Source: Verrucomicrobiota bacterium (lineage in GTDB: Bacteria; Verrucomicrobiota; Verrucomicrobiia; Limisphaerales; JAHDYP01). From it: 64,000 bases of DNA. Where the stretch lies: positions 1 through 64,000 of the forward strand of contig JAHDYP010000013.1 in NCBI GenBank assembly GCA_023383055.1, written 5' to 3'. A program made the position numbers and the translations under genes. The notes beneath the pieces were generated by a model. It searched no databases and was not told where the DNA came from. It worked only from the letters and a program-made list of their open reading frames with translations. This document shows, in pieces, positions 5,086 to 25,311 of the stretch (the stretch's first letter is position 1; each line of letters begins with the position of its first letter).

Positions 5086-10562
<5,477 letters not shown>

Positions 10563-10566
<4 letters not shown>

Positions 10567-11408
10567 AAAAAGTCATCCACCGGATCCAGGCCTTGGGCGA
10601 GAAAGCCGCCCAACTCAAACACGTGGTCGAGGGCGCTCCCGCGGTGGCGACGGGCATTCGCGATGCCGTGGCCGTGACCGCCGGCCAACTGCAGCAACTG
10701 CGGGCCGATGTCCAGGCCGGCGTGAGCGGCCTGCGCGTCGAGGACGAAGACCGGTTGCTCGCCGCGCTGCGCGAGGTCGGCACCAGCACCGAGCTCCTGG
10801 AAGAGGCCGGGTACGCGTTGGGCGGCGTGGATGTCGAACTGGGGCTGCTCCGGCGCATCGTGGTGCGACTCGAGAAGCTCGAGGACGTGGGGCTGGCGCG
10901 ACTCCGGGCGATCCACGCCTCGAGCGCGGGACGCTTCACCGTTCAGGCACTGTTGAACGCCCTCATCAAAGCGGAAGAGATGGCGGCGAAGGTCGACTTG
11001 CCCGACCTGACCTATCGGCAGTTGATCGTGGATGTCGGTCCGGCACCGACGGTCCGCGTTTGCTGGCGACCAGACGCGGTCGTGGTGGACGAGGAACCGG
11101 TGGCGACCAGACCCGCGGCGGCGGCGGCGACGGTGCCGCCGGTCTTGAGCGCCACCTCGTCGTTGCTGGGCAAGAGTTCCTTCTTTCAACCTCGCGAGGC
11201 TCCGCATTCGGAATCCGCTCCCGCGGTTCCCGCCGCGGCCGTGGTTCCCCCCGCCACGCCCGTCCCCGCATCGACCACGCTCGTTCCCGCCGCCGTTCCC
11301 GGGCTGTCCCTCACCACCGTCGAAGCAGAGTCGGCCCCCGGCGACTGGAAACGTGGCGCTTTGGATCGGTTCAAGCGCATGCCGGACCTCTCCAAATCCC
11401 GGCGTTGA
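10563..11408 (+). CDS. Hypothetical protein translationally coupled to the giant ATPase (281 aa; helical N-domain, Pro/Ala-rich C-terminal tail)
   Basis: Its ATG overlaps the giant gene's stop (ccATGAaaaaag, 10563-10566). The coding-strand codon bias is consistent with the neighbours. C-terminal third is Pro/Ala/Val-rich low complexity. No recognisable family. Confidence 0.6.
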
Positions 11409-12290: not shown

Positions 12291-12327
12291 ACAAAAAAAC
12301 AACCGGAGGGAAAACCCTCCGGTTGCG
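12291..12327 (-). terminator. Rho-independent terminator for the fasciclin-domain gene
   Basis: On the minus strand the sequence is CCGGAGGG-uuuu-CCCUCCGG followed by UUGUUUUUUUGUG, immediately 3' of the gene ending at 12351. Forward sequence is acaaaaaaacaaccggagggaaaaccctccggttgcg. Confidence 0.65.
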
Positions 12328-12350: not shown

Positions 12351-15300
12351 TTAATCGACGGCGATGCGATAGTACTTCGCACCGGCATCCATCGCGTCGC
12401 GGAAGCCGATCGGTTCTCCCGTTCCGGTCACCGGCTCGCCCACGTTCACCCATTCGATCGGGTTGGCCATGAGATCCGCCGTGGACTGCAGTTGATAACT
12501 CCGTCCCGCTTCGGTTGGCGTTTGAATGGCGATCTGCCCTTCTTCAATCCCCGCGACCAAAGTCGGTGCCTGCGGTGTCGGCGGCAGGAGCACTTGATCG
12601 ATGATGTGCGCCACGCCATTGGAGGCGAGCAGGTCGGCCTCGATCACCGTGGCCTCGTTGACCTTGACGGTATCGCCCGTGATGGTGATCTGGACATCCG
12701 CGCCGGCCACCGTGGTGAGCGGTCCGGTGGTCAGATCCGACGACAGCGCCCGGGCGGCCACCGCATGGTAGAGCAGAATGGCGGTCAACCTCTCCGGATC
12801 CTGGAGGAGCTCGTCGATGAGTTCCTGTCCCAAGGCCGCGAAGGCGGCGTTGTTGGGTGCGAAAACCGTGAGCGGTCCTTCACCGGCCAGCGCGTTGGTC
12901 AAACCGGCAGCCTGCACCGCCGCGACCAGGGTGCTCAGGTCCTCGCGGGAGGCCAGGAGCTCGACCAAATCGGGCTCGGTAACGGGCGCGATCAAGGGCA
13001 GCGGGTTCCGGACGCCCTCGTTGCTGAACACGTGATAGGCGGCCACGGCGGTCCAGTCGCCCGCCCAGTTGTAATCAGCGAACGCGCCGATATAATTGAC
13101 GGGGGTGTAGAAGCCGTCGGCGGGGGCGGTGCGCGGGCTATTCCAGGCGGGGCTGTCGGGCGCCAGGCGCGGATCCAGGCCTCCGTCGCCCACGCGGCTG
13201 ATGCCCAGCAGCTTGGGATCCTCGATGCGGTTGTTGCGGGCGGCGTCCTCGAACAGCACCGCAGCATTGGGCGTCACCGCCAGGTTGGCGACCGTGTTGT
13301 CGTTGTTGAATCCCCACCAGAGGTTGTCGCGGAAATCCAGCAGCCCGCTCTGCAAATGCGCGTCGGACCGGCTGTCGATCGAGATGCCCTGCCGCGAGAA
13401 ATCCGTGAAGATACTGTTGTAAAAGCGCGGGGCCGCATACCACCGCACGGTGAAGGCGTTATTGTTGGCGCCCTGACCGGCCGGCGCGTTCTGGCCCGCC
13501 CCGATGAAGGTGGCATTGTAAACCGTGAAGTTCGCAACCGGCTCCGCGCCCACACCGATGTCGTTGGGCTCGCCATTCAACTCCGCGCTCTTGTCCACTT
13601 TGCCCGGTTCCTGGATGACAAACACAAACTGATGTTTGCCCCGGAAACCCTGGTCGGTATCGAAGCTGTCGTCGTCGTTGAAGGCGCTGACCATGTACTT
13701 CGTGTTCACCTTGCCGCCGAAGAACTCGAACCCGTCGTCCGCCACCGCATACGCTTCGCAGAACTCGACCACCGTCCCTTCGCCCACCGCGCCGAAGGAA
13801 ATCCCGTTGAACTCCTTGTTGGCGGCAAACACCACCCCGGCGTGCCGCACCGACAAGTAGCGCAACACTCCCGAGCTGTCCTGGTCGTCGTCCCCACCAA
13901 GCCGATGCACATTCTGGCCATTGACCACGATGTCCTCCAACCCCTCATACACATCGTATTTCGGGGTGGCCGCGTCGCCCGCCACGTTGGACGAGGTGTT
14001 GATGCGGGCCCGACCCAGCAAGGTCAGCCCGCCCCACAGGCCCCGTTCGTAGATGCCCAGCGTTCCCGGGTTGTTCACGTCATCGTCAAGGGCCGTCATG
14101 ATGATCGGGTTCTGCGCGGTGCCGTTGGCGAAGATCTTCGCCCCCCGCGTCACCACCAGGGCGCCCACCGGGTCGGCCGTGCCTTTGATCACCGTGCCCG
14201 CCTCGATGTGCAATTCGGCCCCCTCCAGCGCATAGATGAACCCGTTCAACACATACTCGTTGGTCCGATACCACTGCACCACACCCGTCAGCGGCGCCGT
14301 CACCTGGATCGTATTCGCGGCGCGGGGCGCGACAATACCGTAGGCGGAAAGGGCGGTCCAATTGGCGATCCAGAGGTCGTTATCGTCGAACGCGCCGATG
14401 TAATTGACGGGGGTGTAGAAGCCGTCGGCGGGGGCGGTGCGCGGGCTATTCCAGGCGGGGCTGTCGGGCGCCAGGCGCGGATCCAGGCCTCCGTCGCCCA
14501 CGCGGCTGATGCCCAGCAGCTTGGGATCCTCGATGCGGTTGTTGCGGGCGGCGTCCTCGAACAGCACCGCAGCATTGGGCGTCACCGCCAGGTTGGCGAC
14601 CGTGTTGTCGTTGTTGAATCCCCACCAGAGGTTGTCGCGGAAATCCAGCAGCCCGCTCTGCAAATGCGCGTCGGACCGGCTGTCGATCGAGATGCCCTGC
14701 CGCGAGAAATCCGTGAAGATACTGTTGTAAAAGCGCGGGGCCGCATACCACCGCACGGTGAAGGCGTTATTGTTGGCGCCCTGACCGGCCGGCGCGTTCT
14801 GGCCCGCCCCGATGAAGGTGGCATTGTAAACCGTGAAGTTCGCAACCGGCTCCGCGCCCACACCGATGTCGTTGGGCTCGCCATTCAACTCCGCGCTCTT
14901 GTCCACTTTGCCCGGTTCCTGGATGACAAACACAAACTGATGTTTGCCCCGGAAACCCTGGTCGGTATCGAAGCTGTCGTCGTCGTTGAAGGCGCTGACC
15001 ATGTACTTCGTGTTCACCTTGCCGCCGAAGAACTCGAACCCGTCGTCCGCCACCGCATACGCTTCGCAGAACTCGACCACCGTCCCTTCGCCCACCGCGC
15101 CGAAGGAAATCCCGTTGAACTCCTTGTTGGCGGCAAACACCACCCCGGCGTGCCGCACCGACAAGTAGCGCAACACTCCCGAGCTGTCCTGGTCGTCGTC
15201 CCCACCAAGCCGATGCACATTCTGGCCATTGACCACGATGTCCTCCAACCCCTCATACACATCGTATTTCGGGGTGGCCGCGTCGCCCGCCACGTTGGAC

Positions 15301-15701
15301 GAGGTGTTGATGCGGGCCCGACCCAGCAAGGTCAGCCCGCCCCACAGGCCCCGTTCGTAGATGCCCAGCGTTCCCGGGTTGTTCACGTCATCGTCAAGGG
15401 CCGTCATGATGATCGGGTTCTGCGCGGTGCCGTTGGCGAAGATCTTCGCCCCCCGCGTCACCACCAGGGCGCCCACCGGGTCGGCCGTGCCTTTGATCAC
15501 CGTGCCCGCCTCGATGTGCAATTCGGCCCCCTCCAGCGCATAGATGAACCCGTTCAACACATACTCGTTGGTCCGATACCACTGCACCACACCCGTCAGC
15601 GGCGCCGTCACCTGGATCGTGTCGGCAAGCGTGCTGCCGGCCAGCATCAACATCGCCCCGATCGACCAGGAGCAGAACCGGAATGGAATTGTCCTTTTCA
15701 T
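12351..15701 (-). CDS. Secreted protein with a duplicated ~407-aa N-terminal module and a C-terminal fasciclin (FAS1) domain
   Basis: Signal peptide MKRTIPFRFCSWSIGAMLMLAGSTLA. The module beginning TIQVTAPLTGVVQWYRTNEYVLNGF... and ending ...PVNYIGAF occurs twice, identically. FAS1 motifs LTVFAPNNAAFAAL and GVAHIIDQVLLPP lie near the C-terminus. Confidence 0.8.
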   Translation of the reverse strand: MKRTIPFRFCSWSIGAMLMLAGSTLADTIQVTAPLTGVVQWYRTNEYVLNGFIYALEGAELHIEAGTVIKGTADPVGALVVTRGAKIFANGTAQNPIIMTALDDDVNNPGTLGIYERGLWGGLTLLGRARINTSSNVAGDAATPKYDVYEGLEDIVVNGQNVHRLGGDDDQDSSGVLRYLSVRHAGVVFAANKEFNGISFGAVGEGTVVEFCEAYAVADDGFEFFGGKVNTKYMVSAFNDDDSFDTDQGFRGKHQFVFVIQEPGKVDKSAELNGEPNDIGVGAEPVANFTVYNATFIGAGQNAPAGQGANNNAFTVRWYAAPRFYNSIFTDFSRQGISIDSRSDAHLQSGLLDFRDNLWWGFNNDNTVANLAVTPNAAVLFEDAARNNRIEDPKLLGISRVGDGGLDPRLAPDSPAWNSPRTAPADGFYTPVNYIGAFDDNDLWIANWTALSAYGIVAPRAANTIQVTAPLTGVVQWYRTNEYVLNGFIYALEGAELHIEAGTVIKGTADPVGALVVTRGAKIFANGTAQNPIIMTALDDDVNNPGTLGIYERGLWGGLTLLGRARINTSSNVAGDAATPKYDVYEGLEDIVVNGQNVHRLGGDDDQDSSGVLRYLSVRHAGVVFAANKEFNGISFGAVGEGTVVEFCEAYAVADDGFEFFGGKVNTKYMVSAFNDDDSFDTDQGFRGKHQFVFVIQEPGKVDKSAELNGEPNDIGVGAEPVANFTVYNATFIGAGQNAPAGQGANNNAFTVRWYAAPRFYNSIFTDFSRQGISIDSRSDAHLQSGLLDFRDNLWWGFNNDNTVANLAVTPNAAVLFEDAARNNRIEDPKLLGISRVGDGGLDPRLAPDSPAWNSPRTAPADGFYTPVNYIGAFADYNWAGDWTAVAAYHVFSNEGVRNPLPLIAPVTEPDLVELLASREDLSTLVAAVQAAGLTNALAGEGPLTVFAPNNAAFAALGQELIDELLQDPERLTAILLYHAVAARALSSDLTTGPLTTVAGADVQITITGDTVKVNEATVIEADLLASNGVAHIIDQVLLPPTPQAPTLVAGIEEGQIAIQTPTEAGRSYQLQSTADLMANPIEWVNVGEPVTGTGEPIGFRDAMDAGAKYYRIAVD
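13093..14312. repeat. Copy A of a perfect ~1220-bp tandem direct repeat (period 1308 bp) inside the fasciclin-protein gene
   Basis: Six-frame ORFs are duplicated exactly at a +1308 offset (e.g. 13129-13422 = 14437-14730; 13636-13860 = 14944-15168). Boundaries come from direct comparison: a mismatch at 13092 vs 14400, and divergence after 14312 vs 15620. Confidence 0.85.
14401..15620. repeat. Copy B of the perfect ~1220-bp tandem direct repeat
   Basis: See copy A. The two copies are identical at nucleotide level across all compared stretches. Confidence 0.85.
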
Positions 15702-15822: not shown

Positions 15823-16764
15823 TTAGCGTTTCCGCGGACGGGACACATGAACCGCCACCGGACCGGTGAAATCGAGGCCGGTCAGGCTGGCAGGCCCGGT
15901 GACGCCGGGTTTGCGGAAAGCGACCAGGGTGGGATAACCGTCGCGATGGACACGGGCGCCGATGGCCAGGGTGCCTTCCAGCCGCTTGAAGGCCAGCATG
16001 CGCCGCCGCGCGCCCGCCTCATGCGGCACCAACACCGTGAGCATGGCCAGGGCGCCTTCGGGTTTGGGGGTGACACCCTCGAGCGTCCAGCTCGGTCGAG
16101 CCTGGCTCTCTCCGGAGGCGGCATCGTCTTGCCGCTGTGAGAATTCGAGCGGCTGCGGGAATAGATGGCGCACCGTGGCACCGGCGGTCGGCAGTTCGAG
16201 AAGATGATGTTCCCTCGCGGCATCCCACTCGAAGCGATCCGCCGCCCGCAGCAGGAATCGGCTTGTCGCCGGCTCCGCCGGCAGCAGGAAGTCGCAGATC
16301 AAGATCAGGTCCGGCTCGACCCAAACCACATGACGCTCGGCGAGGTTTGACCCGGCGACGGTCTTCGCGCGCAGAGCTACGCCCAAGTAGCTCCAGCCTT
16401 CCGCTGCCACCGGCGCGAGCAACTCGCCGGTCCACAGTGCGGTGACCTCGGTTCCGAGTTGGGGCGGTGGCGCGTCGAGATGGATCCCAGGGAGCATCCG
16501 GATCCGAACGGTACCCGCGAGCGGTGAGGGATCGCCGTGACTGCCGCTCAGCAGGATCTGGAATCGTCCCGCAGGGTCCGCTCCCACCGGGGACCACGCG
16601 GCCGCTCCGGCGTGATTGGCCAGGGAGTCGGCCGCCAGGGCGTTGCTGGTGCAGACCAGAAGCGGCACTGCCAGCAGGAAGCTCCCGCAGAGGCGCCTAT
16701 GCAGTCGGAGCCCGGAGAGTGTGGTCGCAGGGGAACGGAGCGGTTTGCGTAAGGCGGGTTGCAT
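15823..16764 (-). CDS. Hypothetical secreted protein downstream of the TonB-dependent receptor
   Basis: Start chosen at MQPALRKPLRSPATTLSGLRLHRRLCGSFLLAVPLLVCTSNALA (signal peptide; ATG ending 16764). The longer ORF to 16992 overlaps the receptor gene. No family recognised. Confidence 0.5.
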   Translation of the reverse strand: MQPALRKPLRSPATTLSGLRLHRRLCGSFLLAVPLLVCTSNALAADSLANHAGAAAWSPVGADPAGRFQILLSGSHGDPSPLAGTVRIRMLPGIHLDAPPPQLGTEVTALWTGELLAPVAAEGWSYLGVALRAKTVAGSNLAERHVVWVEPDLILICDFLLPAEPATSRFLLRAADRFEWDAAREHHLLELPTAGATVRHLFPQPLEFSQRQDDAASGESQARPSWTLEGVTPKPEGALAMLTVLVPHEAGARRRMLAFKRLEGTLAIGARVHRDGYPTLVAFRKPGVTGPASLTGLDFTGPVAVHVSRPRKR

Positions 16765-16792: not shown

Positions 16793-19708
16793 TCACCAAT
16801 CGTAGGCCACCGTAAGGCCAAACGTTCGCCCCTTGGTGATACGGGTGTGCAGGTACTCGGTGCGTTCCTCGGAGTAGGTGCGTTCGTAGGGGGGATCCAG
16901 GAGGTTTTTCGCGGAAAACCGCAGTCGCCAGTGCTTGCCAAGCCGCTGGGAGAGCACGAAATCCAGCACGGGCACCGGTTGTTCATAGACATCCAACCCC
17001 TGCGGATCGGCGATGAAAATGCGCGGCCCGTAAATACCGAAGAGCACGGTGGCGACCGTGCCCCAGCGCGGATGTTCGTAGGTCAGGTCCGCATTCACGA
17101 CGTAGGGAGATTGATCGTACAGCTGGCGCGTGTCGTCGGCTCCGGGGTCGATCCGCCGCCGGGCGGTCAACTCCTCCGGAGTCAACGGCACCTCGGACTC
17201 GATCCAGGCGAAGTTGCCGCCCACGCTGAAGGGGGCCCATAGCGGCGAAACGAAGTCCAGACGCTGGCGCACCTCGAATTCGACGCCATAGATGCGGGCG
17301 CTTTCGCGATTCTCATAGCTCACGATGTCCCGCTGGAGATCGACGAAAGTCTTCTCGATCGGGTTTTCGAGATCTTTGTGGAAAAGACTCACGGCCAGGA
17401 GCGCGCTGGGGGTCGTGAACCATTCCCAGCGCAAATCGAAGTTCTGAATCGAGGTCATCTGGAGGTTCGGGTTGCCGTCCAGAAACTCGTTGAGCACAGT
17501 GTCGTACGAACGGATGGGCGACATCTCGCGGAACGTCGGCCGCGCCACCGTCTGGCTGTAGCTAAACCGGACGTTCATGTTGGTGATGACTTCAAGAATC
17601 AAGCTCGCCGCGGGCAACACGTCGAGCTGGTCGATTTCGCTTTCCACCGGCACCTCCCGGGCGCGGGCGCCGATCGTCAGGTCGGTGTGCTCGAGTCGGG
17701 CTCCGCCGATGAACCGGAGGCGCTCGAGCAGGGGCAGTTCGACCATCCCGTAGCCCGCCTGGAGATCCTGCTGGCCGTCATAGAAGCCTTGGGAGGTGCG
17801 TTCGGCACGGAGGTAGCGTCCCCAGTTGTAGGTGATCAGGCCGGCCGCGTTCGTCGTGGGGTGGTAGCCGAGATTCTCTTCGGTCAGGAAAGTGTTGGGA
17901 TTGCCGTCGAAGACGAATCCCGAGGTGTGGTAGTAGTAGTTCCGGTCAAAATAGCTGCGCGTGGTGCCGCTGAAATAGTAACCCAACTTGAACTCGGCTT
18001 CGCCCACATTCCAACTATCGAACGGCACGGTGACGTCGGTCTTGAAATTCCAGTTCTGCTCCTCCAGCTCGCGAAAGTACCGAGTGGGATTGCTCGGCTG
18101 CGGAATATTGTTCGCGCCCAGCGCGTAGGCGCCGCCGTTGGTTTCGACCAGGAAGTTGAAGTATCGCAGGTCGGGTTCGTCCTGCGTGGTGCGCGCCATC
18201 GACCCCAGCCAGTCCAGGCGGATGCCGCGCGCCTCCGGGAAGTCGTGGCGGCCGCGCAGTTGATAGCTCTGCAGATTGCGTTCGATGAAGTGCAGGGTGT
18301 TGAGGTCGAAATTGTGACCTTGCTCGCCCGGCCGGAGATCGGGACCGTAACGCCGCAGGGCAGTGTCTTCACTGTTCTGATTGTAAAGAAAGTTGAAACC
18401 CAGCTCATGGTCGGGACTGACCTGCCACGCCAGATTGACGACCGACCCCCAGAGCACTTCTTCCACGCCGCGCACCTCGTCGTACTGAAACTTCGGTGCC
18501 AAAGGCGGATTCTGGTCGATATTCAAGAGGTAACGATCTGACTTGCCATCGTCGTAGTACTGAAACTTGCGGCTATACGTCAGGCCCGCGAACATGCCAA
18601 AAGGCCGTTCGAGAAGTTGGATGGTGTCGCCGATGTTCAGCGAGAGATTGTGATCGAGCGGGGCGCGACTCGTGGTCGGCTGAAACTGCGTCACCCCGAG
18701 CTCCCGCGTCAACTCGTCCAGCCGATCGGCGCGGGCGATGAGCTCCGGCTGGTTCGGCCGCGCGGTGGTCGGAGCCCGCTGGACCAGTGCGGCGTCGAGT
18801 TCTGCGGTGTCGAGAGCGCTCGGCAAGGCACGCGTGCCGTCATCCATGCCCAGCCAGTCGCTCGAACCGCCTTCGTACGAGGCAAAGTCTCGGTTGAGAC
18901 TGGCCTGGGTGTTGTAACCCACCCCAACTGAAGACGAGAGTGTAAACCGCTCGGGAAAGGAGCGCGTCATGATGTTGATCCCGCCTCCGGTGAAGTTGCC
19001 GGGTTGATCCGGAGTGAACGTCTTATTGACGACCACCCGGTCGATCAAACCGGCGGGAAACAAGTCGAGCGGCGCCGTCTTGTAGTAGGGATTCGCGGAC
19101 GGCACCTCGGCTCCATTCAACTGCAAGCCCGTGTAACGCTCGTTCAAGCCGCGCACGACCGGAGTCTTGCTTTCCGCCACCGTGATGCCCGGCACCTTGC
19201 TGACGATGTCGGCGGCGTCGCTGGCACCCGCTCGGCTGAACTGGACCGAGCCGATCGCGTCCTGCATAGCCGCCGCCCGCTGCCGCAGTTCGAGTAGTTC
19301 GGCGGACTGCCCTTCCAGCACAGCCGCCGTTACTTCGTATTCCTCCATCTCGTAGAACTCGGGGCGCAAGCGCAGATTCACGGTCGAAGCCTGCCCGGGA
19401 CCGACCCGCACCTCGGTGACGACGGCCCGGGCGTAACCCGATTTCGAGAAGGCCACGGTCTGATCGCCCACCGGCACCCCCTCCAGCAGGTAACGACCAT
19501 CACTGCCGGTCGCCACCGCCAGCGTCGTGCCCCGCACGCTGACCACCACCCCCGCCAGCGGCACCCCGTGCCACTCGTCCATGACCGTTCCCGCCACCGC
19601 TCCGGCACTGGCGGAGTCTTGAGCCCGGGAAACGACCGTGCCGATGCCGAGGAATCCCGCCCAAATCAGGAGGGTAACCAGGACCCGGCGGCAAGGACTA
19701 CGGTTCAT
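16793..19708 (-). CDS. TonB-dependent outer-membrane receptor with N-terminal carboxypeptidase-regulatory-like domain
   Basis: Signal peptide. CarbopepD_reg-like beta-sandwich (GTVMDEWHGVPLAGVVVSVRGTTLAVATGSDGRYLLEGVPVGDQTVAFSKSGY). Plug domain (DAADIVSKVPGITVAESKTPVVRGLNERYTGLQLNGAEVPS...). 971 aa with an aromatic C-terminal beta-barrel end. Confidence 0.9.
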   Translation of the reverse strand: MNRSPCRRVLVTLLIWAGFLGIGTVVSRAQDSASAGAVAGTVMDEWHGVPLAGVVVSVRGTTLAVATGSDGRYLLEGVPVGDQTVAFSKSGYARAVVTEVRVGPGQASTVNLRLRPEFYEMEEYEVTAAVLEGQSAELLELRQRAAAMQDAIGSVQFSRAGASDAADIVSKVPGITVAESKTPVVRGLNERYTGLQLNGAEVPSANPYYKTAPLDLFPAGLIDRVVVNKTFTPDQPGNFTGGGINIMTRSFPERFTLSSSVGVGYNTQASLNRDFASYEGGSSDWLGMDDGTRALPSALDTAELDAALVQRAPTTARPNQPELIARADRLDELTRELGVTQFQPTTSRAPLDHNLSLNIGDTIQLLERPFGMFAGLTYSRKFQYYDDGKSDRYLLNIDQNPPLAPKFQYDEVRGVEEVLWGSVVNLAWQVSPDHELGFNFLYNQNSEDTALRRYGPDLRPGEQGHNFDLNTLHFIERNLQSYQLRGRHDFPEARGIRLDWLGSMARTTQDEPDLRYFNFLVETNGGAYALGANNIPQPSNPTRYFRELEEQNWNFKTDVTVPFDSWNVGEAEFKLGYYFSGTTRSYFDRNYYYHTSGFVFDGNPNTFLTEENLGYHPTTNAAGLITYNWGRYLRAERTSQGFYDGQQDLQAGYGMVELPLLERLRFIGGARLEHTDLTIGARAREVPVESEIDQLDVLPAASLILEVITNMNVRFSYSQTVARPTFREMSPIRSYDTVLNEFLDGNPNLQMTSIQNFDLRWEWFTTPSALLAVSLFHKDLENPIEKTFVDLQRDIVSYENRESARIYGVEFEVRQRLDFVSPLWAPFSVGGNFAWIESEVPLTPEELTARRRIDPGADDTRQLYDQSPYVVNADLTYEHPRWGTVATVLFGIYGPRIFIADPQGLDVYEQPVPVLDFVLSQRLGKHWRLRFSAKNLLDPPYERTYSEERTEYLHTRITKGRTFGLTVAYDW

Positions 19709-19728: not shown

Positions 19729-21123
19729 CTAGGAGCGGACACCGCGGGCCGCGGCGAGTTCGACCTTCTCGAGGTAGCGCTGGATATGATCGCGAGGGCG
19801 GAGCTTCTGCGCCTTGCGGAGCAGTTCCGCGGCTTCGGCGTAGTCGCGCGCCTGGACCCGGAGTTCCGCCTGTTTGATCCAGGCCTCGGCCCGGAACGCC
19901 TCGACGTTGGCGGCGGTCTGATAGCGAAAGTCCGCCTTCTCCCGTTGATCGTGGCGCGCGTAGTAATCGCCCGCCAGCATCAACGCCTCGGCGTCCAGGG
20001 GGTTGCTCCGGATGATCTCTTCAAGCATCGCGATCGCCCGCTCGCCGTCGCCCAGCCCCAACGCCGCCCGGGCCTCGAACCGCCGCAACTTCGCCAGATC
20101 CTCCTCGCCGAGCGTGGCGCCATAGGTGGCGCGAATGGTTTCGAACAAGGCCAATGCCTCCTGGAACGCCCCGCGCGTGACCAGGATCTCCGCGGTGCGC
20201 AACGCCCGGCCGCTCCGGCTGCCATCGTCCTGCTCCATCGATTCGCGGTAAGCCGACAGCGCCAGTGCCGTCGATTCCTGCGCCATGTAGAGATCCCCGA
20301 GGAGGGCCAGGTCCTGGGCCGTGGCCTGCCCCAGTCGCCGCACCGCCTCGAGATTGACCGCCGCCTGCAACGGTTGTTCCTGCTGGAGGTAGACGTTGGC
20401 TTGGAGCACCCAGAGGTTCGCCTTGTCCGGGTGACTCTGGATGAGTTCGTCGAGCAGTTCGGTCGCCGGGAGGTACTGGCCCACTTCGATGAAGCTCTTG
20501 ATCAACCCGAGTTTCCAATCGAGATTGGCCGGGTCGTGCAACACGGCGTTCTTGTAGGCCGCCTCGGCCGAAACGTGATTCCCCAGGTTCAGGTGGCAGA
20601 ATCCCAGCAACCCGTAAGTCACGGCTTCCGCCCCGCCCAACTCGATGGCTTTCGTCAGATGCGGACTCGCCTCGGCGTATCGGCCCTCGCGCGCCAGCAA
20701 CATCCCGAGACTCCGGTGCGCCCGCATGAACCGGGGGAATTTGGCCACCGCCACCTCATAGTGACGCACGGCATTTGTGGTGTCGCCTTCTCCCAACAGC
20801 AACGAAGCCACCGAGAAATCGAGCAGCGCGCTCGAGCTCGGTGTGATTTTTCCCGCCAGTTCCGCGGCCGCTTGACTTGGGTTCTCGGTGAACAACCGCC
20901 GTTCGTCCAGGCTGCGATACAGGGTCTGTTCCTCGAGGCTCAGCCTCGGCTCGACGCTGGCCTCGTATCCGAAGAACCGCCGGGCAAAATCAGGATCGTT
21001 CCAGATGGCGGCCAGGGGCCGCTCGTCCGGCGGCGGCGGAGCCTTGGGAGCCCGCGCGGCGAGGGCACTGCCCGCCAGGGTGATCGAAAGGAAGCAACCG
21101 AGAGTTCGCTGCAATCGCGTCAT
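19729..21123 (-). CDS. Periplasmic tetratricopeptide-repeat protein (TtpD-like partner of TonB systems)
   Basis: Signal peptide MTRLQRTLGCFLSITLAGSALAARA followed by multiple TPR-like helical repeats (AxxxYxxA..., LGxxxxAxxxY). Confidence 0.75.
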   Translation of the reverse strand: MTRLQRTLGCFLSITLAGSALAARAPKAPPPPDERPLAAIWNDPDFARRFFGYEASVEPRLSLEEQTLYRSLDERRLFTENPSQAAAELAGKITPSSSALLDFSVASLLLGEGDTTNAVRHYEVAVAKFPRFMRAHRSLGMLLAREGRYAEASPHLTKAIELGGAEAVTYGLLGFCHLNLGNHVSAEAAYKNAVLHDPANLDWKLGLIKSFIEVGQYLPATELLDELIQSHPDKANLWVLQANVYLQQEQPLQAAVNLEAVRRLGQATAQDLALLGDLYMAQESTALALSAYRESMEQDDGSRSGRALRTAEILVTRGAFQEALALFETIRATYGATLGEEDLAKLRRFEARAALGLGDGERAIAMLEEIIRSNPLDAEALMLAGDYYARHDQREKADFRYQTAANVEAFRAEAWIKQAELRVQARDYAEAAELLRKAQKLRPRDHIQRYLEKVELAAARGVRS

Positions 21124-21212: not shown

Positions 21213-21291
21213 ACGCCAACGTCCGTGCCTGCCGCTGCTGCTGGCGATTGACAGGCTGTGCTTCATACGAATGGCCACGAAAAGCCGCGGG

Positions 21292-21948
21292 TTAGCTGGC
21301 CACCCGAAACCGGATCGGCTGGCGCATATAGGTCTTCACCGCCGCGCCATCCTTCATGCCGGCCTTGAATCGCCAGCGGCGGATCGCCTCGAGCGCGGGT
21401 CGCTCGAACTCGGAACGGCTCGAGGATTCGACTCGCGCGTCCTCGACCGCACCGTTCTCCGTCAGCAGGAACACCACCGAAACCACGCCCTCGATCCGCG
21501 CCTTCCGCAACTCGGGCGGGTAAGCCGGCGGCACCGCCGCAATTAACGTGGGCGGCTTGTCCAGGTCCGACACGTCGAGCGCCTGGGCGAGGTCCCGGGC
21601 GGCGTCGGCGCTGCCGCCGAACAGATTCATCGCCAGCGCGCCGCCGGAGCCGACCGCCACCTCGAGATCGACGGTGATCGCCATCGGCTGCGCGGTGTCC
21701 GAGAGCACCGGCGGCGGTTCGGGCGGCGGCTCGTCTTCCGGCGGTGGCGGCGGCGCCTCGTCCATCGACGGCGGAGCCTGCATCACGGTCGAGTCCACCT
21801 TGGTGATGAACAAATCGCGCTTGGCATAGCTCGAGACGAGCTGCGTCAGCGGCAGCACCAGGAACACCACCAGCGTGATCAAGACCGCGCCCGCCAATCG
21901 GACCCCGGTCCAGGCATTCGACGGCGGCGGTGAGTAGACTCGGCGCAT
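21292..21948 (-). CDS. tonB: Energy transducer TonB
   Basis: N-terminal TM (LAGAVLITLVVFLVLPL). Pro/Glu-rich spacer (EAPPPPPEDEPPPEPPPV). C-terminal TonB domain (ARIEGVVSVVFLLTENGAVEDARVESSSRSEFERPALEAIRRWRFKAG). Confidence 0.8.
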   Translation of the reverse strand: MRRVYSPPPSNAWTGVRLAGAVLITLVVFLVLPLTQLVSSYAKRDLFITKVDSTVMQAPPSMDEAPPPPPEDEPPPEPPPVLSDTAQPMAITVDLEVAVGSGGALAMNLFGGSADAARDLAQALDVSDLDKPPTLIAAVPPAYPPELRKARIEGVVSVVFLLTENGAVEDARVESSSRSEFERPALEAIRRWRFKAGMKDGAAVKTYMRQPIRFRVAS

Positions 21949-21995
21949 GCGCTCGGGCTCTTGGCTGGTTCACGTGCCGACGACCCGATCGTCGC

Positions 21996-22418
21996 TCACG
22001 CGCCCGACGCGCGGGCCGCCAGGCTCACGTTCTTGGCGCCGCCCAGTTTGGATTCGTCGATCACGCGCAGCACGGTGTCGGCTTCGGCGGTGCGGTCCAC
22101 CTGGATGATCACCGGCATCGGCTGTTGTTCGACCAGGCGTTTGACCAGCGGACGCACGCCGCCCACGCCGATTTCCTCCCCGCCGTAGACGACCTGGCCC
22201 TTCGCGGTGACCGCCAGCAGGATGCTGTTCTTGTCCAGCGCGGTGGCGGAGGCCGCGGAGGGTTTGTCGATTTCGACCCCGGTCTCCTCGACGAAGGTCG
22301 TGGTCACAATGAAAAAAATCAGGAGAATGAACACCATGTCGATCAACGGCGATATGTTGATGTCGGTGACCTCCTCGGTATCGGTGATGGCGCGACGGTA
22401 CTTCATATTGACCCGCAC
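21996..22418 (-). CDS. exbD: Biopolymer transport protein ExbD/TolR
   Basis: INISPLIDMVFILLIFFIV TM segment and ExbD periplasmic domain. The alternative start MKYRR lies 12 nt downstream, at 22406. Confidence 0.85.
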   Translation of the reverse strand: MRVNMKYRRAITDTEEVTDINISPLIDMVFILLIFFIVTTTFVEETGVEIDKPSAASATALDKNSILLAVTAKGQVVYGGEEIGVGGVRPLVKRLVEQQPMPVIIQVDRTAEADTVLRVIDESKLGGAKNVSLAARASGA

Positions 22419-22475: not shown

Positions 22476-23144
22476 CTAGGCCGGCACCAGGCTCGCCCCC
22501 ACCGGCGCCACCGCTTCCGACCGCGCCGGGATCGCGACCGGCGCGACCGTGAAACTGCGCCGGAAATGCTGCACCGTTACACTCTCCAATCGGGCGAGGA
22601 ACGCCTCGTACTCCGCGCGCTTGCGTTTGATCAAATAGACCATCGCCAGGCCCGGCAGGGCGACGCACAAGCCGACTTCGGGCGGGAAGAGCGCCTGGGA
22701 AATCCCGGCGGACATCATTTCGGACATCTGCCCGCCACCCAGCGCGATGGACTGGAAGGTCACCAGCATGCCCAGCACCGTGCCCAGCAGCCCGATCAGC
22801 GGCGCGGCGGTGATCAGGATGTTCAGGAACACCAGCCGCCGATCGATGACCGGCAGCTTGGTCGCCACGACCTCGGCAAAGCGATTGTGAATGTCCCCCA
22901 GCGAACGGACTTCGTCCTGGGTGTAGCGAATGATCTCACCCACTTCGCCCTCGGCCTCCTGGGGCCGGCTCACCCAACGGCGCCAGGTATCGCGCGGCAA
23001 CTGGCGATGCTGCCGGGCGGAGAAATAGAGCAACAGCCGGAGGGCCTGGCTGTAGATCAACAGGCTCAGTATCGCCAACGGGATCATGGTCCAGCCCCCG
23101 GCCAGCCACACGTTCCATACCTTTTCGATGAATAGCTCGATCAT
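22476..23144 (-). CDS. exbB: MotA/TolQ/ExbB proton-channel protein
   Basis: Three TM helices with LNILITAAPLIGLLGTVLGMLVTFQSIALGGGQMSEMMSAGISQALFPPEVGLCVALPGLAMVYLIKRK, the ExbB/TolQ signature region. Confidence 0.85.
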   Translation of the reverse strand: MIELFIEKVWNVWLAGGWTMIPLAILSLLIYSQALRLLLYFSARQHRQLPRDTWRRWVSRPQEAEGEVGEIIRYTQDEVRSLGDIHNRFAEVVATKLPVIDRRLVFLNILITAAPLIGLLGTVLGMLVTFQSIALGGGQMSEMMSAGISQALFPPEVGLCVALPGLAMVYLIKRKRAEYEAFLARLESVTVQHFRRSFTVAPVAIPARSEAVAPVGASLVPA

Positions 23145-23147
23145 GAC

Positions 23148-24544
23148 TCAACTCCTCTCCGGTTCCGGGGCCGGCGCCCCGTTGATAAAAGCCACCGTGG
23201 TCTGCTCCATACTTCCCAAGACCCCCTTCACTTTCCGCGAAAGAAACGCGTGGATCAGCAGCGCCGGAATCGCCACGATCAAACCGAACTCGGTCGTGAT
23301 CAGCGCCTCCGATATGCCGCCCGACAACGTCCGCGGATCTCCCGCGCCGAAGATCGTGATCATGTTGAAGGTGTTGATCATGCCCGTGACGGTGCCCAGC
23401 AATCCCAGCAACGGCGCGCAGGCGGCCGTCAGCGCGATGATCGGGAGCAGGGCCTCGAGCTTCGGTTTCGTGTCGAGCAGTTTCTCGTAGAGCACTTCCT
23501 CGATGTATTCCTTGGGCTCTTCCACATGCTCGACGGCGGTGGTCAGCAGCTCGCCCACCGGACCGGGAATCGCCTGCGCTTGTGCCAGCGCATCCTGGCT
23601 TTGACCCTTGCGCAAGTGCCCCAGCAAGCCCTGCAGGTCCATCGGTGTGACCAGGCGGATCTTCGAGATCTGCGACCATTTGATGGCGCAGATCGCCAAA
23701 GCGGCCAGCCCCAGCAACAAGATCGGCGCCATCACCGGCCCGCCTTTGCGGATGTGTCCCCAGAGGGTGTCTTTCGTGGCCGCAATCTTCAGCGCGTTCC
23801 CGCTCGTGGCATCGAAAGGAAGCTCCCCGCGCCCGTCGGCCAGCAACTGGCGAATCGCCGGCGGATGCTGACGGCCGATCTCGATCGCCCGCGGCTTGGG
23901 CGAGCCCACGCGCAGCTCCGCCATTCCCGCCGCATCGCTCTCGTCGCTTGCGAACAACGCCAACGGCCCCGCCAAAAGATACTTCCCCGATTCCATCCGC
24001 CCCGCGGCGGTCAGGGCTTTGCCCTCGAAAATCTCGCCGCCGATCACCCGCTCGAGTCGGTCGAGTGACGCATCCAGCAGCTTTGCCTGGCGCTCGAACC
24101 GTTCGACGGGCGTCAGATCCGGCTTGGTGGGCGCCGCCTTGAGCTCCGCCAGCAGGGTGGCGTACCGATCCACCTCGCTGATGTGCACCCGGGTTTCGAA
24201 TCGGCTCAGGTATTCCCCCAACAACGCCCCCACGAATTTCTGCTCTTCCCGCGCCCGCTCGACTTCCTTGCGCAAGACGCCCAGATCGACGAGTTGATTG
24301 TCCTGGGCACGCTGAGCCCGCTCGTACTCGACCCGGCGGGTCAGCACCTGATCCTCGAGCCGGCTCAACTCCCGGGCCAAGGGGACTTTCTCCCCGCCCA
24401 CTTCCTCCTGGACCGCGGCCAGTTCTCCGAGGGCCTGTTTCAGTTCGCCCTGCACGGAGACGCTCAAACCCTCCAGCGTGTCCGCCCCCAACAGGCGTCC
24501 CGCCAGCAACATCGCCATCCATCCCACTGTAATCCGCGGTCGCA
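23148..24544 (-). CDS. Long MotA/TolQ/ExbB-family protein with ~250-aa N-terminal periplasmic coiled-coil extension (TtpC-like)
   Basis: Start at MRPRITVGWMAMLLAGRLLGADT (signal/anchor; ATG ending 24544). The C-terminal third has the ExbB motif (LGLLGTVTGMINTFNMITIFGAGDPRTLSGGISEALITTEFGLIVAIPALLIHAFLSRK). Confidence 0.8.
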
Positions 24545-24552
24545 TGGTTCGC

Positions 24553-25311
24553 TTACCTGACTTCAAACGGCACCACCAAAAGGGCCGCGGGCGACTGGTT
24601 CCGATACATCGCGATCGCCCGGGTAATCGTCGGCCCCAGCTCGTTCCGGGGCGTCGTCTGCCAGCCCGTGTCTCCCGGCTGTTCCACGCCGGCAAACTCG
24701 CCTCCTTCGCCGACAAAGTACGCCTGGGCCAGGCCCACGTACAGGGTCTCGACTTGCACCTCCCGGCCGGCGGCGTTCGTACGAATCTCGCTCTCGACCG
24801 AGACGCCGCTGTTGAACTTGTCGATCTCGTTCAACACGCCGACCAGGTTCTGGAGTCGCTCGGCCACCGACATCCGCGTCGAGTCCGGATCCTCCGGAAA
24901 GCGCTCGAGCAACGGCGCGATCCGTCGCCGCAGCGGCGCGGGCAATCGCTCATTCAAGGCCTTGATCCGCTGTTCATACCCGGTCGCCAGTGCCCGGGCG
25001 CGGGCCGTTGCCTGTCCCAGCGCTTCCTGCTCGGTCTCCAATCCCTGGCGTTCCCGCGCCACCTGCCCGCTGGCCTCCCCCAATCCAGCCACCTTGGCGT
25101 CCAAATCTTTTAACTCCCGCTCGAACATCCGTGCCGATGCCTCGAGCACATCCTTCTCCGCCGCCCAATCCGACCGGGTCTTCGCCACCAGTTGCCGCGT
25201 TTGGACCCACTGCTCGAGGGCGGACCGCGCCTCAGCGAGCGGGTTTTCCGCCGCCCAAGCCAGGCCGGCAAAACCCAAGCAGACCGTCATCGACAGCAGT
25301 CGGACTCGCAT
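24553..25311 (-). CDS. DUF3450-like periplasmic coiled-coil protein (TtpB-like), first gene of the TonB cluster
   Basis: Signal peptide MRVRLLSMTVCLGFAGLAWA. Coiled-coil middle. It sits immediately upstream of the long MotA/TolQ gene, as in Vibrio-type TonB2 systems. Confidence 0.65.
   Translation of the reverse strand: MRVRLLSMTVCLGFAGLAWAAENPLAEARSALEQWVQTRQLVAKTRSDWAAEKDVLEASARMFERELKDLDAKVAGLGEASGQVARERQGLETEQEALGQATARARALATGYEQRIKALNERLPAPLRRRIAPLLERFPEDPDSTRMSVAERLQNLVGVLNEIDKFNSGVSVESEIRTNAAGREVQVETLYVGLAQAYFVGEGGEFAGVEQPGDTGWQTTPRNELGPTITRAIAMYRNQSPAALLVVPFEVR

What the first reader, a model, noticed from the sequence alone, without database searches (positions are those of the whole stretch)
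12351..15701. Perfect 1.2-kb tandem duplication inside a secreted fasciclin-domain protein gene
Two ~1220-bp copies (13093-14312 and 14401-15620; period 1308 bp) are identical at nucleotide level. This gives a protein with two identical ~407-aa modules ahead of a FAS1 adhesion domain. 100% identity implies very recent duplication, ongoing gene conversion, or an assembly artefact (mis-resolved repeat). Such repeats recombine readily, so module copy number may vary and change the length or valency of a probable surface adhesin.
Basis: seen in the sequence. Interest (0 to 1): 0.6.

Follow-up and report, generated by a model that had tools for sequence, protein, structure and literature searches.

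The report
Homogenised twin beta-helix modules, TonB operon
The perfect 1.2-kb repeat is real in the sequence, but it is an old pair of beta-helix domains that recombination keeps copying onto each other, as happens throughout this widespread, uncharacterised protein family linked to outer-membrane TonB-dependent transporters.

Summary
Window 13093-14312 and 14401-15620 are 1220 nt, 100% identical, with an in-frame period of 1308 nt, inside one minus-strand ORF (12351-15701, 1116 aa).

The protein reads: signal peptide, Beta_helix_4 (PF28492) module, a second Beta_helix_4 module, FAS1, then a ~70-aa C-terminal domain. It is the last gene of a TonB2-type operon: DUF3450, ExbB-like, ExbB, ExbD, TonB, TPR, TonB-dependent transporter (TBDT), a 313-aa ORF, then this gene and a strong terminator.

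The repeat is not a fresh duplication. The ~26 residues after each module ("tails") are only 31% identical to each other, yet each has closer counterparts in other genomes. Tandem arrays of 2-5 modules are common in the family. In all 25 multi-module proteins/loci examined, every module's nearest relative lies in the same protein or adjacent gene (62-97% aa, against 45-78% between proteins). Seven other genomes carry perfect tracts of 440-1235 nt with differing boundaries.

The best reading is concerted evolution by intragenic recombination (gene conversion or unequal crossing-over). The caveat is that short-read assembly could have turned ~97-99% identity into exactly 100%, and could hide extra copies. 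The biochemical function is unknown. The most likely role is a secreted partner of the transporter that binds or processes a polymer. This is a new member of a known kind, of moderate interest.

The parts
12351..15701 (-). Whole gene, 1116 aa: signal peptide, Beta_helix_4 module 1, linker tail, Beta_helix_4 module 2, terminal tail, FAS1, C-terminal domain
   Evidence: ORF list, translation, Pfam FAS1, PF28492 on homologues. GC3 0.85, like the neighbouring TBDT gene.
15623..15701 (-). Predicted signal peptide (aa 1-26, MKRTIPFRFCSWSIGAMLMLAGSTLA | DT)
   Evidence: Read from the translation. This is inference; no signal-peptide predictor was run. No lipobox cysteine at the cleavage site.
14401..15620 (-). 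Module 1 core (aa 28-434), perfect copy
   Evidence: 1220 nt identical to 13093-14312. AlphaFold2 right-handed beta-helix, pLDDT 93.9.
14313..14400 (-). Tail 1, the inter-module linker (…YIGAF-DDNDLWIANWTALSAYGIVAPRAAN). It escapes homogenisation.
   Evidence: 31% aa identity to tail 2 of the same protein, but 17 of 26 residues match tail 1 of L007 (counted by hand from the listing). The tail type is conserved in other genomes.
13093..14312 (-). Module 2 core (aa 464-870), perfect copy
13005..13092 (-). Tail 2, the terminal tail (…YIGAF-ADYNWAGDWTAVAAYHVFSNEGVRN)
   Evidence: Matches the 'NWAxDWTALGxYGV' type found after the last module in relatives and in most single-module relatives.
12582..12941 (-). 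FAS1 (fasciclin) domain, aa 921-1040
   Evidence: PF02469 E 2.7e-35, 121.7 bits. PDB sequence hits to TGFBIp, periostin and bacterial FAS1 proteins. Among ~290 family proteins in hand it is found only here and in P0078.
12354..12578 (-). C-terminal ~70-aa domain shared with most verrucomicrobial family members. Possibly a sorting or anchoring domain; function unknown.
   Evidence: phmmer hits to the C-termini of about 100 relatives. No NCBIfam or Pfam hit.
12299..12326 (-). Intrinsic-terminator-like hairpin (12-bp stem, 8 GC pairs, T-run) 25 nt after the stop codon; marks the operon end
15823..16764 (-). 313-aa secreted-looking ORF inserted between the TBDT gene and the beta-helix gene (KJ072_04040, MCL4176903.1); near-orphan
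   Evidence: Coding-like GC3 and a start 29 nt after the TBDT stop. Only 3 distant homologues. Absent from the 81 related loci. No family or PDB hit.
16793..19708 (-). TonB-dependent transporter, 971 aa, with an N-terminal CarboxypepD_reg domain
   Evidence: Pfam Plug, barrel and CarboxypepD_reg. Best NCBIfam is TIGR01782 TonB-Xanth-Caul, below its cut-off. Homologue adjacent on the same strand in 55 of 81 related loci.
19729..21123 (-). TPR protein, 464 aa, in the position of TtpD
   Evidence: Pfam TPR. Conserved upstream of the TBDT gene in 9 loci and in L082 and L084.
21292..21948 (-). TonB, 218 aa
   Evidence: 48% identical over full length to the PF03544-bearing TonB of L082.
21996..22418 (-). 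ExbD
   Evidence: PF02472 E 2.3e-27
22476..23144 (-). ExbB
   Evidence: PF01618
23148..24716 (-). Large ExbB-like protein, in the position of TtpC. The true start is probably downstream of 24716.
   Evidence: PF01618 in the C-terminal part. Overlaps the DUF3450 ORF by 164 nt.
24553..25311 (-). DUF3450 protein, in the position of TtpB; first gene of the operon
   Evidence: PF11932 E 2.9e-29. TtpB2 of Vibrio is a DUF3450 protein and the first gene of the six-gene tonB2 operon (PMC6957404).

Best explanation
The gene encodes a secreted protein made of two tandem ~436-aa right-handed beta-helix modules (Pfam Beta_helix_4), a FAS1 domain and a small C-terminal domain. It is the last gene of a dedicated TonB2-type energising operon that also carries a TonB-dependent outer-membrane transporter.

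The two modules are an old pair, not a new duplication. Their short C-terminal tails belong to two anciently diverged types, a linker type and a terminal type.

The 1220-nt perfect identity of the cores is the footprint of a very recent homogenisation by homologous recombination between the two direct repeats. This could be gene conversion or a cycle of unequal crossing-over. The tract runs as far as usable homology allows. It starts at the first codon after the signal-peptide or linker junction and stops at the 'YIGAF' motif, where the tails diverge.

The same process acts throughout the family, which therefore shows concerted evolution of modules and variable module number.

Shown here: the anatomy, the operon context, the old tails with identical cores, and the family-wide pattern. 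Inferred: the recombination mechanism, secretion, and the role as a polymer-binding or polymer-processing partner of the transporter (probably for a glycan, given the pectin-lyase-like fold and the Xanthomonas/Caulobacter-type transporter).
For: Anatomy:
- 1220 nt at 100% identity, period 1308 nt, in frame.
- The two-module model has both modules folded: pLDDT 85, pTM 0.65.

Old tails, young cores, in seven verrucomicrobial two-module proteins:
- Cores are 96% identical within a protein but 55% between proteins, whatever the position.
- Tails are 38% identical within a protein.
- Tails are 47% (tail 1 vs tail 1) and 54% (tail 2 vs tail 2) identical between proteins, and 35% across types.
- The tail motifs are visible directly.
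- Family-wide, a tail's nearest tail in another protein tends to be of the same positional class (odds ratio 4.3, p = 7e-7, 213 tails from 108 proteins).

Concerted evolution across the family:
- In 25 multi-module proteins/loci (57 modules), every module's nearest relative lies in the same protein or, in L008 and L066, the adjacent gene (62-97% vs 45-78%).
- Of 144 cluster representatives (clusters at 50% identity), 92 have at least 2 complete modules. Adjacent-module identity has a median of 79%, and 22% of pairs are at least 90% identical.

Mosaic perfect tracts with different boundaries in independent genomes: L007 1235 nt, L003 1170, L038 1133, L016 993, L004 934, L012 771, L021 440. L016 sits on a 502-kb contig whose naming suggests a long-read assembly. 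Pairs in chromosome-level or isolate genomes are 65-88% identical at nucleotide level (L015, L027, L032, L064), so the pattern does not depend on short-read collapse.

Copy number differs between fairly close relatives: L008 has 3 modules and L009 has 2 at 77-78% identity; L011 has 3 and L016 has 2 at 75%.

Context:
- Operon genes and terminator in the window.
- The order DUF3450-ExbB-ExbB-ExbD-TonB-TPR-TBDT-Beta_helix_4 recurs in L082, and TPR-TBDT-Beta_helix_4 in L084.
- A TBDT gene of this type is adjacent on the same strand in 55 of 81 loci from several phyla.
Against: - No reads are available. Exact 100% identity, and exactly two copies, could come from a de Bruijn-graph assembler collapsing near-identical copies and walking the loop once.
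- L003 (SPAdes-style contig) shows a 1170-nt perfect run. Its ~97%-identical relative L001 shows scattered differences between module cores (96-100% per 100-nt bin outside one patch around a frameshift).
- Tail type is not strictly positional. 24 of 85 complete single-module relatives carry the linker-type tail. So the pair may have arisen by fusion of two old paralogues rather than by one old in-place duplication. Either way the tails are old.
- The family-wide positional signal is weaker than in the verrucomicrobial subset.
- The gene's product is not in the protein collection under any start tried, so how the depositor annotated it is unknown.
Confidence: 0.75

Rival explanations
1. Assembly effect on exactness. 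The two modules really exist but differ at a few percent of sites, or there are more than two copies. A short-read graph assembler merged the variants and traversed the repeat node twice, giving two artificially identical copies. This is compatible with the best explanation and only weakens 'perfect' and 'two'.
For: L003 (NODE-style contig) has a 1170-nt perfect run. The closely related L001 assembly shows scattered mismatches between its module cores. Of the eight perfect tracts of at least 440 nt, five are on NODE_-named contigs, L016 is on a contig_-named contig, and the contig naming of L021 and of the window gives no hint of the assembler. Many database relatives are fragments that end inside a module, which shows these repeats do break assemblies.
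Against: L016, on a 502-kb 'contig_' contig (naming suggests a long-read assembler; this is inference), has a 993-nt perfect tract flanked by 66-73% identity. The boundaries of the window's tract coincide with the natural limits of homology. Differences in L001 may partly be long-read errors, since it also carries a frameshift.
Confidence: 0.35
2. A very recent, lineage-specific tandem duplication of a single-module gene.
For: 100% identity over 1220 nt. Single-module relatives are as close to the window's module (62-63%) as two-module ones.
Against: A simple tandem duplication gives identity over the whole period. Here 88 nt per period are diverged (64-67% nt, 31% aa). The internal tail matches internal tails of other species far better than it matches its own terminal tail. 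The two-module layout with the same tail order occurs in relatives whose cores are ~55% identical.
Confidence: 0.06
3. A false duplication: the genome has one module and the assembler duplicated it.
For: None specific. It is a generic risk for MAG contigs.
Against: The second copy is joined through a unique, in-frame 88-nt linker encoding the family-typical internal tail. The ORF stays open over 3.35 kb. Two to five modules are common in this family.
Confidence: 0.04
4. Independent recent duplications in each lineage, with the internal tails converging on a similar linker sequence under selection. There would be no long-term gene conversion.
For: Module number changes often (1 to 5 near-complete modules), so duplications do occur. 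The linker tail must meet a structural need.
Against: It needs repeated convergence on the same ~26-aa motif. The linker-type tail also exists in single-module proteins, where it is not a linker. Mosaic pairs with perfect tracts embedded in 50-90% identical flanks (L004, L016, L012, L021) are what conversion produces, not whole-unit duplication.
Confidence: 0.05

Closest known systems
Periscope proteins (SasG, Aap, Rib, Sgo_0707 SHIRT arrays, Esp, CdrA; Whelan et al. 2021, PMC8201768)
   Same: Tandem arrays of folded domains encoded by near-identical DNA. High DNA identity is proposed to drive intragenic recombination and repeat-number variation. Adjacent near-identical domains break the usual rule that neighbouring domains diverge.
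   Different: By my recollection the repeats in those proteins are small domains of about 100 residues (not checked in the paper). [quoted passage not shown] Here the unit is a whole 436-aa beta-helix that is itself the conserved, presumably functional part. There are only two copies and no distal N-terminal domain. The gene sits in a TonB-dependent transporter operon of an uncultured verrucomicrobial MAG. Strain-level length variation and rod geometry were not shown here.
Long-lasting concerted evolution of prokaryotic paralogues (Wang & Chen 2018, PMC6053082)
   Same: Copies within one genome are more alike than orthologues in other genomes, recurrently across lineages.
   Different: That survey concerned separate paralogous genes (26 genes, described as rare). 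Here the units are domains within one ORF, with position-specific ends that escape homogenisation.
Multi-module Beta_helix_4 (PF28492) proteins of Verrucomicrobiota, Bacteroidota, Rhodothermales, Ignavibacteria, Zixibacteria and others
   Same: Same module (50-63% identity to the best hits). Same layout of signal peptide, 1 to n modules and C-terminal domain. Often the same TBDT neighbour.
   Different: The window's protein adds a FAS1 domain, seen elsewhere only in P0078. A 313-aa near-orphan ORF lies between the TBDT gene and this gene. Its perfect tract (1220 nt) is among the longest; only L007's is longer (1235 nt).
Vibrio TonB2 operon ttpB-ttpC-exbB-exbD-tonB-ttpD (PMC6957404)
   Same: Same gene order for the six energising genes. 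DUF3450 comes first, and the paper describes TtpB2 as a DUF3450 protein.
   Different: In the window the operon continues with a TBDT gene and the beta-helix gene. Iron regulation and substrates known for Vibrio cannot be transferred. That TtpD is a TPR protein is my recollection; the term 'tetratricopeptide' does not occur in that paper.
TBDT loci with surface glycan-binding or glycan-degrading partners (Bacteroidota SusC/SusD PULs; Xanthomonas CUT loci). From general knowledge.
   Same: An outer-membrane TonB-dependent transporter encoded next to a secreted protein with a carbohydrate-enzyme-like fold. The transporter's best model is the Xanthomonas/Caulobacter subfamily.
   Different: No SusD gene is present. 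The transporter is not a SusC family member: the TIGR04056 match covers only the N-terminal domain at 29 bits against a cut-off of 368. No CAZyme family could be assigned to the module.
Oar, a CarboxypepD_reg-type TBDT needed for secretion of protease PopC in Myxococcus (PMC6434023)
   Same: A TBDT of this kind has been reported as required for protein export (abstract; the paper uses the term CarboxypepD_reg). The export role offers an alternative role for the pair.
   Different: The link is only a lead.

Membership tests
Pfam PF28492 Beta_helix_4 | Significant match to the family model | tested here: met
   Indirect. The local Pfam copy lacks this model (no hit). All 120 listed homologues (E 1e-217 to 1e-124, mostly 50-63% identity) carry precomputed PF28492, named Beta_helix_4.
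Pfam PF28492 Beta_helix_4 | Right-handed parallel beta-helix fold | tested here: met
Fasciclin / FAS1 (PF02469) | Match above the Pfam gathering score | tested here: met
   121.7 bits against a cut-off of 22, aa 921-1040, full-length model match. PDB FAS1 hits.
Periscope proteins | Tandem, highly identical (DNA-level) folded-domain repeats | tested here: met
   Two modules, 1220 nt at 100%.
Periscope proteins | Repeat-number variation between strains of a species | not testable with these tools
   No second genome of this species was found. Between more distant relatives the number ranges from 1 to 5 near-complete modules.
Periscope proteins | The repeat array acts as a rod projecting a distinct N-terminal ligand-binding domain from the cell surface | tested here: not met
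   The modules start directly after the signal peptide, so there is no separate N-terminal domain. The inter-module geometry is uncertain (pTM 0.65).
Concerted evolution (paralogous units closer within a genome than orthologous units between genomes) | Within-protein identity exceeds between-protein identity, with evidence that the units pre-date the divergence | tested here: met
   cores 96% vs 55%; tails 38% within a protein vs 47-54% between same-type tails; p = 7e-7; mosaic tracts.
T9SS cargo (C-terminal sorting domain, TIGR04183 type) | Match to a T9SS C-terminal domain model | tested here: not met
   No NCBIfam hit at E <= 0.1 for the window's C-terminal 109 aa. No hit either for relatives that NCBI names 'T9SS C-terminal target domain'. 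The window's C-terminal domain is homologous to theirs.
SusC/SusD-type polysaccharide utilisation locus | SusC-family TBDT plus an adjacent SusD gene | tested here: not met
   TIGR04056 matches only the N-terminal domain (29 bits vs a cut-off of 368). No SusD-like gene lies between 11.4 and 25.3 kb.
TonB2-type energising operon (TtpB-TtpC-ExbB-ExbD-TonB-TtpD) | Six genes in this order, with DUF3450 first and an accessory gene after tonB | tested here: met
   DUF3450, large ExbB-like, ExbB, ExbD, TonB, TPR. The order is as in PMC6957404 and in L082.
Polysaccharide lyase / glycoside hydrolase beta-helix enzymes (PL1/3/6/9, GH28 and similar) | Family-specific sequence match or conserved catalytic residues | tested here: inconclusive
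   No Pfam or NCBIfam family match. Only fold-level similarity at 6-15% identity. Invariant acidic residues recur about every 22-26 residues (D145, E167, D192/D193, D218/D220, E244), but they could not be mapped on the model.

The most novel reading that the evidence does not exclude
The TonB2-operon, TBDT and Beta_helix_4 cassette may be a widespread, undescribed kind of TonB-dependent system spanning at least six phyla. Its accessory protein would be a multivalent array of beta-helix modules. Recombination would keep the module sequences identical and tune their number, and this would be maintained by selection (for example, equal binding sites for a repetitive polymer) rather than being a neutral by-product. 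A bolder version has the Oar-like transporter exporting the beta-helix protein to the surface.
Probability: 0.3. Interest if true: 0.6.

Novelty: new member of a known kind. Interest (0 to 1): 0.42.

Why it matters
For this window, the result replaces 'freak recent duplication or artefact' with a specific, testable account. An old two-module protein has had its cores freshly homogenised, within a family where this happens again and again.

More generally, it flags three things:
- A large family (at least 5,870 clusters at 50% identity) of uncharacterised beta-helix proteins is tied to TonB-dependent transporters in environmental bacteria.
- The family is a clean natural example of domain-level concerted evolution with 1.3-kb units and position-specific ends. 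It is useful for studying conversion tract limits and the tolerance of adjacent identical large domains.
- There is a practical annotation problem. These genes break or collapse in short-read metagenome assemblies, so databases are full of fragments and module counts are unreliable.

Cultured carriers exist for experiments: Haloferula luteola (L064), Luteolibacter pohnpeiensis (L054), Pontibacter diazotrophicus (L037) and Geofilum rhodophaeum (L075).

Tried and rejected
- TRF and the repeat finder under-reported the repeat because of period and size limits, so the exact comparison was scripted.
- The plus-strand 1125-aa ORF was rejected as a shadow ORF.
- The '389-aa' ORF upstream was re-cut to a 313-aa ORF. 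Its N-terminal part overlaps the TBDT gene and has non-coding composition.
- The 236-aa ORF first taken for TonB is a wrong frame. The 218-aa ORF is TonB.
- Exact look-ups of the 1116-aa product and three alternative starts found nothing.
- Two metagenome scans for the linker (an exact 36-mer and a degenerate codon pattern) found nothing, so there is no independent assembly of this species.
- The third homology search (FAS1 plus C-terminal domain) was swamped by multi-FAS1 proteins. It found neither the depositor's protein nor further FAS1-bearing family members.
- PDB sequence searches for the TBDT and for the 313-aa ORF gave nothing useful.
- Foldseek against PDB gave only weak generic hits. 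The afdb50 library was unavailable.
- The two-module AlphaFold2 model folded both modules but left their mutual orientation uncertain (pTM 0.65), so no claim about a continuous rod is made.
- The synonymous-site test on the tails was uninformative. Only 7 aligned codons keep the same residue, and one of them differs synonymously.
- The idea that tails are strictly positional was rejected after finding linker-type tails in complete single-module proteins.

Full report
OBSERVATION

Comparing every base of the region with the base 1308 nt further on gives one unbroken identical run: 13093-14312 equals 14401-15620, 1220 nt at 100%. Identity outside the run is at random level. A self-BLASTN extends the match to 1234 nt with a single mismatch and shows no other long repeat in the 64-kb window. 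The period of 1308 nt is 436 codons, so the repeat is in frame.

The coding strand is the minus strand: ORF 12351-15701, 1116 aa, GC3 0.85. The long plus-strand ORF over the same DNA translates to Arg/Gly/His-rich sequence that does not look like a protein.

One detail turned out to be decisive. The identical span is 88 nt shorter than the period. Those 88 nt (14313-14400 against 13005-13092) are homologous but strongly diverged.

ANATOMY OF THE PROTEIN

- aa 1-26 look like a signal peptide. This is my reading; no predictor was run.
- aa 28-434 and aa 464-870 are the identical cores.
- Each core ends in 'YIGAF' followed by a ~26-aa tail. Tail 1, the inter-module linker, is DDNDLWIANWTALSAYGIVAPRAAN. 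Tail 2 is ADYNWAGDWTAVAAYHVFSNEGVRN. They are 31% identical.
- FAS1 follows at aa 921-1040 (PF02469, E 2.7e-35).
- A ~70-aa C-terminal domain closes the protein. It is homologous to the C-termini of about 100 relatives but matches no Pfam or NCBIfam model.
- Relatives that NCBI labels 'T9SS C-terminal target domain' also match no NCBIfam model.

GENOMIC CONTEXT

The gene is the last of a minus-strand row:
- DUF3450 (24553-25311)
- large ExbB-like protein (23148-24716)
- ExbB (22476-23144)
- ExbD (21996-22418)
- TonB (21292-21948)
- TPR protein (19729-21123)
- a 971-aa TonB-dependent transporter with an N-terminal CarboxypepD_reg domain (16793-19708)
- a 313-aa secreted-looking ORF (15823-16764)
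- the beta-helix gene

A 12-bp-stem terminator follows 25 nt after the stop codon.

The first six genes have the order of the Vibrio TonB2 operon ttpB-ttpC-exbB-exbD-tonB-ttpD (PMC6957404). The same row ending in TBDT and Beta_helix_4 occurs in L082, and TPR-TBDT-Beta_helix_4 occurs in L084. A homologue of the transporter lies next to the module gene on the same strand in 55 of 81 related loci. These come from Verrucomicrobiota, Bacteroidota, Rhodothermales, Ignavibacteria, Zixibacteria and Gemmatimonadales. The pairing is not universal: L001, L003 and L083 lack it.

The transporter's best NCBIfam model is the Xanthomonas/Caulobacter subfamily, below its cut-off. It is not a SusC, and there is no SusD gene.

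Exact protein look-ups identify the source as an NCBI MAG, 'Verrucomicrobia bacterium', locus tags KJ072_, on a 73.6-kb contig.

THE REPEAT IN THE LIGHT OF THE FAMILY

The family is large: 5,870 cluster representatives at E <= 1e-3. Tandem arrays are common.
- Of 144 new representatives in the top-scoring list, 92 have two to five complete modules. The list is biased towards multi-module proteins because domain scores add up.
- Twenty-two genome loci carry 2-4 modules in a single ORF. L008 and L066 carry modules in adjacent genes.
- Many of the first search's hits are contig-end fragments of two-module proteins.

In all 25 multi-module proteins/loci examined (57 modules), the nearest relative of every module is another module of the same protein or adjacent gene. 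Identities are 62-97% aa within, against 45-78% for the best module elsewhere. Among the representatives, which come from clusters at 50% identity, adjacent modules have a median identity of 79%, and 22% of pairs are at least 90% identical.

OLD PAIR OR NEW DUPLICATION?

For seven verrucomicrobial two-module proteins:

| Region | Same protein | Between proteins, same position or type | Between proteins, across types |
|---|---|---|---|
| Cores | 96% | 55% | 55% |
| Tails | 38% | 47% (tail 1), 54% (tail 2) | 35% |

The motifs can be seen by eye. Internal tails read 'N-D-L-W-I-x-x-W-T-A-L-S-x-Y-G-x-L-x-P'. Terminal tails read 'N-W-A-x-D-W-T-A-L-G-x-Y-G-V-x-T-x-x-G'. Across 213 tails from 108 proteins, the nearest tail in another protein is preferentially of the same class (odds ratio 4.3, p = 7e-7).

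So the two ends are older than the divergence of proteins whose cores differ by 45%, while the cores are identical. That is concerted evolution, not recent duplication.

One correction to a too-simple picture is needed. Complete single-module relatives carry either tail type: 61 terminal-like and 24 linker-like, for example P0009 and P0012. The two tail types are therefore ancient module variants. The pair may have begun as a fusion of neighbouring paralogues. L008 shows such a neighbour arrangement, with 93% identity between modules of adjacent genes.

FOOTPRINTS OF RECOMBINATION

Nucleotide profiles of module pairs show long perfect tracts with different boundaries in independent genomes:

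| Genome | Longest perfect tract (nt) |
|---|---|
| L007 | 1235 |
| window | 1220 |
| L003 | 1170 |
| L038 | 1133 |
| L016 | 993 |
| L004 | 934 |
| L012 | 771 |
| L021 | 440 |

The tracts in L004, L016 and L012 are embedded in flanks of 50-98% identity. Other pairs are uniformly 65-90% identical. Perfect identity at synonymous sites cannot be explained by protein-level selection, so recombination is required.

In the window the tract spans the maximum possible. At the 5' end, homology stops at the signal-peptide or linker junction. At the 3' end, it stops at the diverged tails.

Module number differs between fairly close relatives: L008 has 3 and L009 has 2; L011 has 3 and L016 has 2. L027 has a four-module array built from a duplicated two-module unit, with m1 close to m3 and m2 close to m4. 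Unequal crossing-over therefore also operates. Internal modules of the three-module L011 carry linker-type tails and its last module the terminal type, as that mechanism predicts.

CAVEAT ON '100%' AND ON 'TWO'

I have no reads. In a de Bruijn-graph assembly, a tandem repeat with a unique spacer forms a loop. Small differences between copies can be merged, and the loop can be walked once. That would give two exactly identical copies whatever the truth is.

L003 (NODE-style contig) has a 1170-nt perfect run. L001 is about 97% identical to it and probably comes from a long-read project; that is my inference from the accession batch. L001 shows scattered differences between its module cores, 96-100% identity per 100-nt bin outside one patch around a frameshift. 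That could reflect true biology, collapse in L003, or long-read errors in L001.

Against a pure artefact:
- L016, on a 502-kb 'contig_' contig, has a 993-nt perfect tract.
- Chromosome-level and isolate genomes still show 65-88% nucleotide identity (72-91% aa) within proteins.

I therefore consider the two-module structure and recent homogenisation secure. Exact identity and the exact copy number remain unverified.

FUNCTION

Nothing here establishes biochemistry. The operon position and the conserved pairing with the TBDT gene argue that the protein works with the transporter. The fold, together with the carbohydrate-associated TBDT subfamily, makes a polymer-binding or polymer-processing role the most likely. 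A glycan is the most probable substrate.

FAS1 is a rare accessory, found only here and in the single-module P0078, which shares 57% identity over FAS1 plus the C-terminal domain. An Oar-like export role for the transporter (PMC6434023) is a speculative alternative. The two-module model does not fix the relative orientation of the modules (pTM 0.65).

COMPARISON WITH WHAT IS KNOWN, AND NOVELTY

Mechanistically, this resembles Periscope proteins, which have highly identical tandem domains, intragenic recombination and variable number (PMC8201768). It also resembles the long-lasting concerted evolution described for a few prokaryotic paralogues (PMC6053082).

It is not a Periscope protein in the defined sense. 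There is no projected N-terminal domain, the unit is a 436-aa beta-helix, and strain-level length variation was not shown.

The domain family exists in Pfam, and multi-module members are common. I found no paper describing its concerted evolution or its link to TBDTs, but my literature search was limited.

VERDICT

This is a real feature and an ordinary mechanism, in a new member of a known kind. It has a family-wide pattern that is tidy and probably unreported. Interest is moderate (0.42).

Noticed in passing
window 15823-16764 (-): A 313-aa ORF with a signal-peptide-like start is wedged between the TBDT gene and the beta-helix gene. It has coding-like GC3. Besides itself it has only three distant homologues (35-40%). 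It has no family or PDB match and is absent from all 81 related loci, so it looks like a lineage-specific insertion into a conserved gene pair.
   Followed up: partly
L027 5890-11655 (Verrucomicrobiales, 1.28-Mb contig): A four-module protein with alternating similarity: m1-m3 82%, m2-m4 82%, other pairs 72-75%. This indicates duplication of a two-module unit, that is, a higher-order repeat.
   Followed up: partly
L008 1421-7853: A single-module gene is followed by a gene with two modules that runs off the contig end. The module of the first gene is 93% identical to the first module of the second gene, so homogenisation also crosses gene boundaries.
   Followed up: partly
L001 7118-10064 (GCA_016713365.1): The first module is split by a frameshift into a 296-aa gene and a 687-aa gene (P0002). 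This is either a long-read error or a pseudogene. The near-identical L003 has one intact 997-aa ORF.
   Followed up: partly
proteins P0001-P0120: Over twenty of the 120 listed 'proteins' are contig-end fragments that start or stop inside a module. The repeats break metagenome assemblies, and public databases under-represent the multi-module architecture.
   Followed up: yes
P0009, P0012, P0021 (complete single-module relatives): These carry the linker-type tail directly before the C-terminal domain. The 'internal' tail type is therefore an ancient module variant and not strictly a positional feature.
   Followed up: yes
window 12354-12578 (-), and relatives P0028, P0049, P0086, P0002: The NCBI name 'T9SS C-terminal target domain-containing protein' given to verrucomicrobial relatives is not backed by any current NCBIfam hit. 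The shared ~70-aa C-terminal domain is unclassified.
   Followed up: partly
window 5086-11408 (+): An 1826-aa protein with DUF3686 ('ATPase involved in DNA repair'), DUF7902 and an AAA domain is followed, with overlapping stop and start, by a 281-aa protein with no family hit (KJ072_04020). It might be a two-gene module of unknown role.
   Followed up: no
window 25963-28065 (+): A 700-aa ORF combines an MGDG-synthase-like glycosyltransferase N-terminal part with a PHP domain, which is an unusual fusion. It is divergently oriented from the TonB2-type operon.
   Followed up: no
window 21263-21973 (-) versus 21292-21948 (-): Two overlapping minus-strand ORFs cover the TonB position. The longer one (236 aa, GTG start) is a junk frame. 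The 218-aa ATG ORF is the real TonB, 48% identical to the TonB of L082. Pfam was run only on the junk frame and gave no hit.
   Followed up: yes
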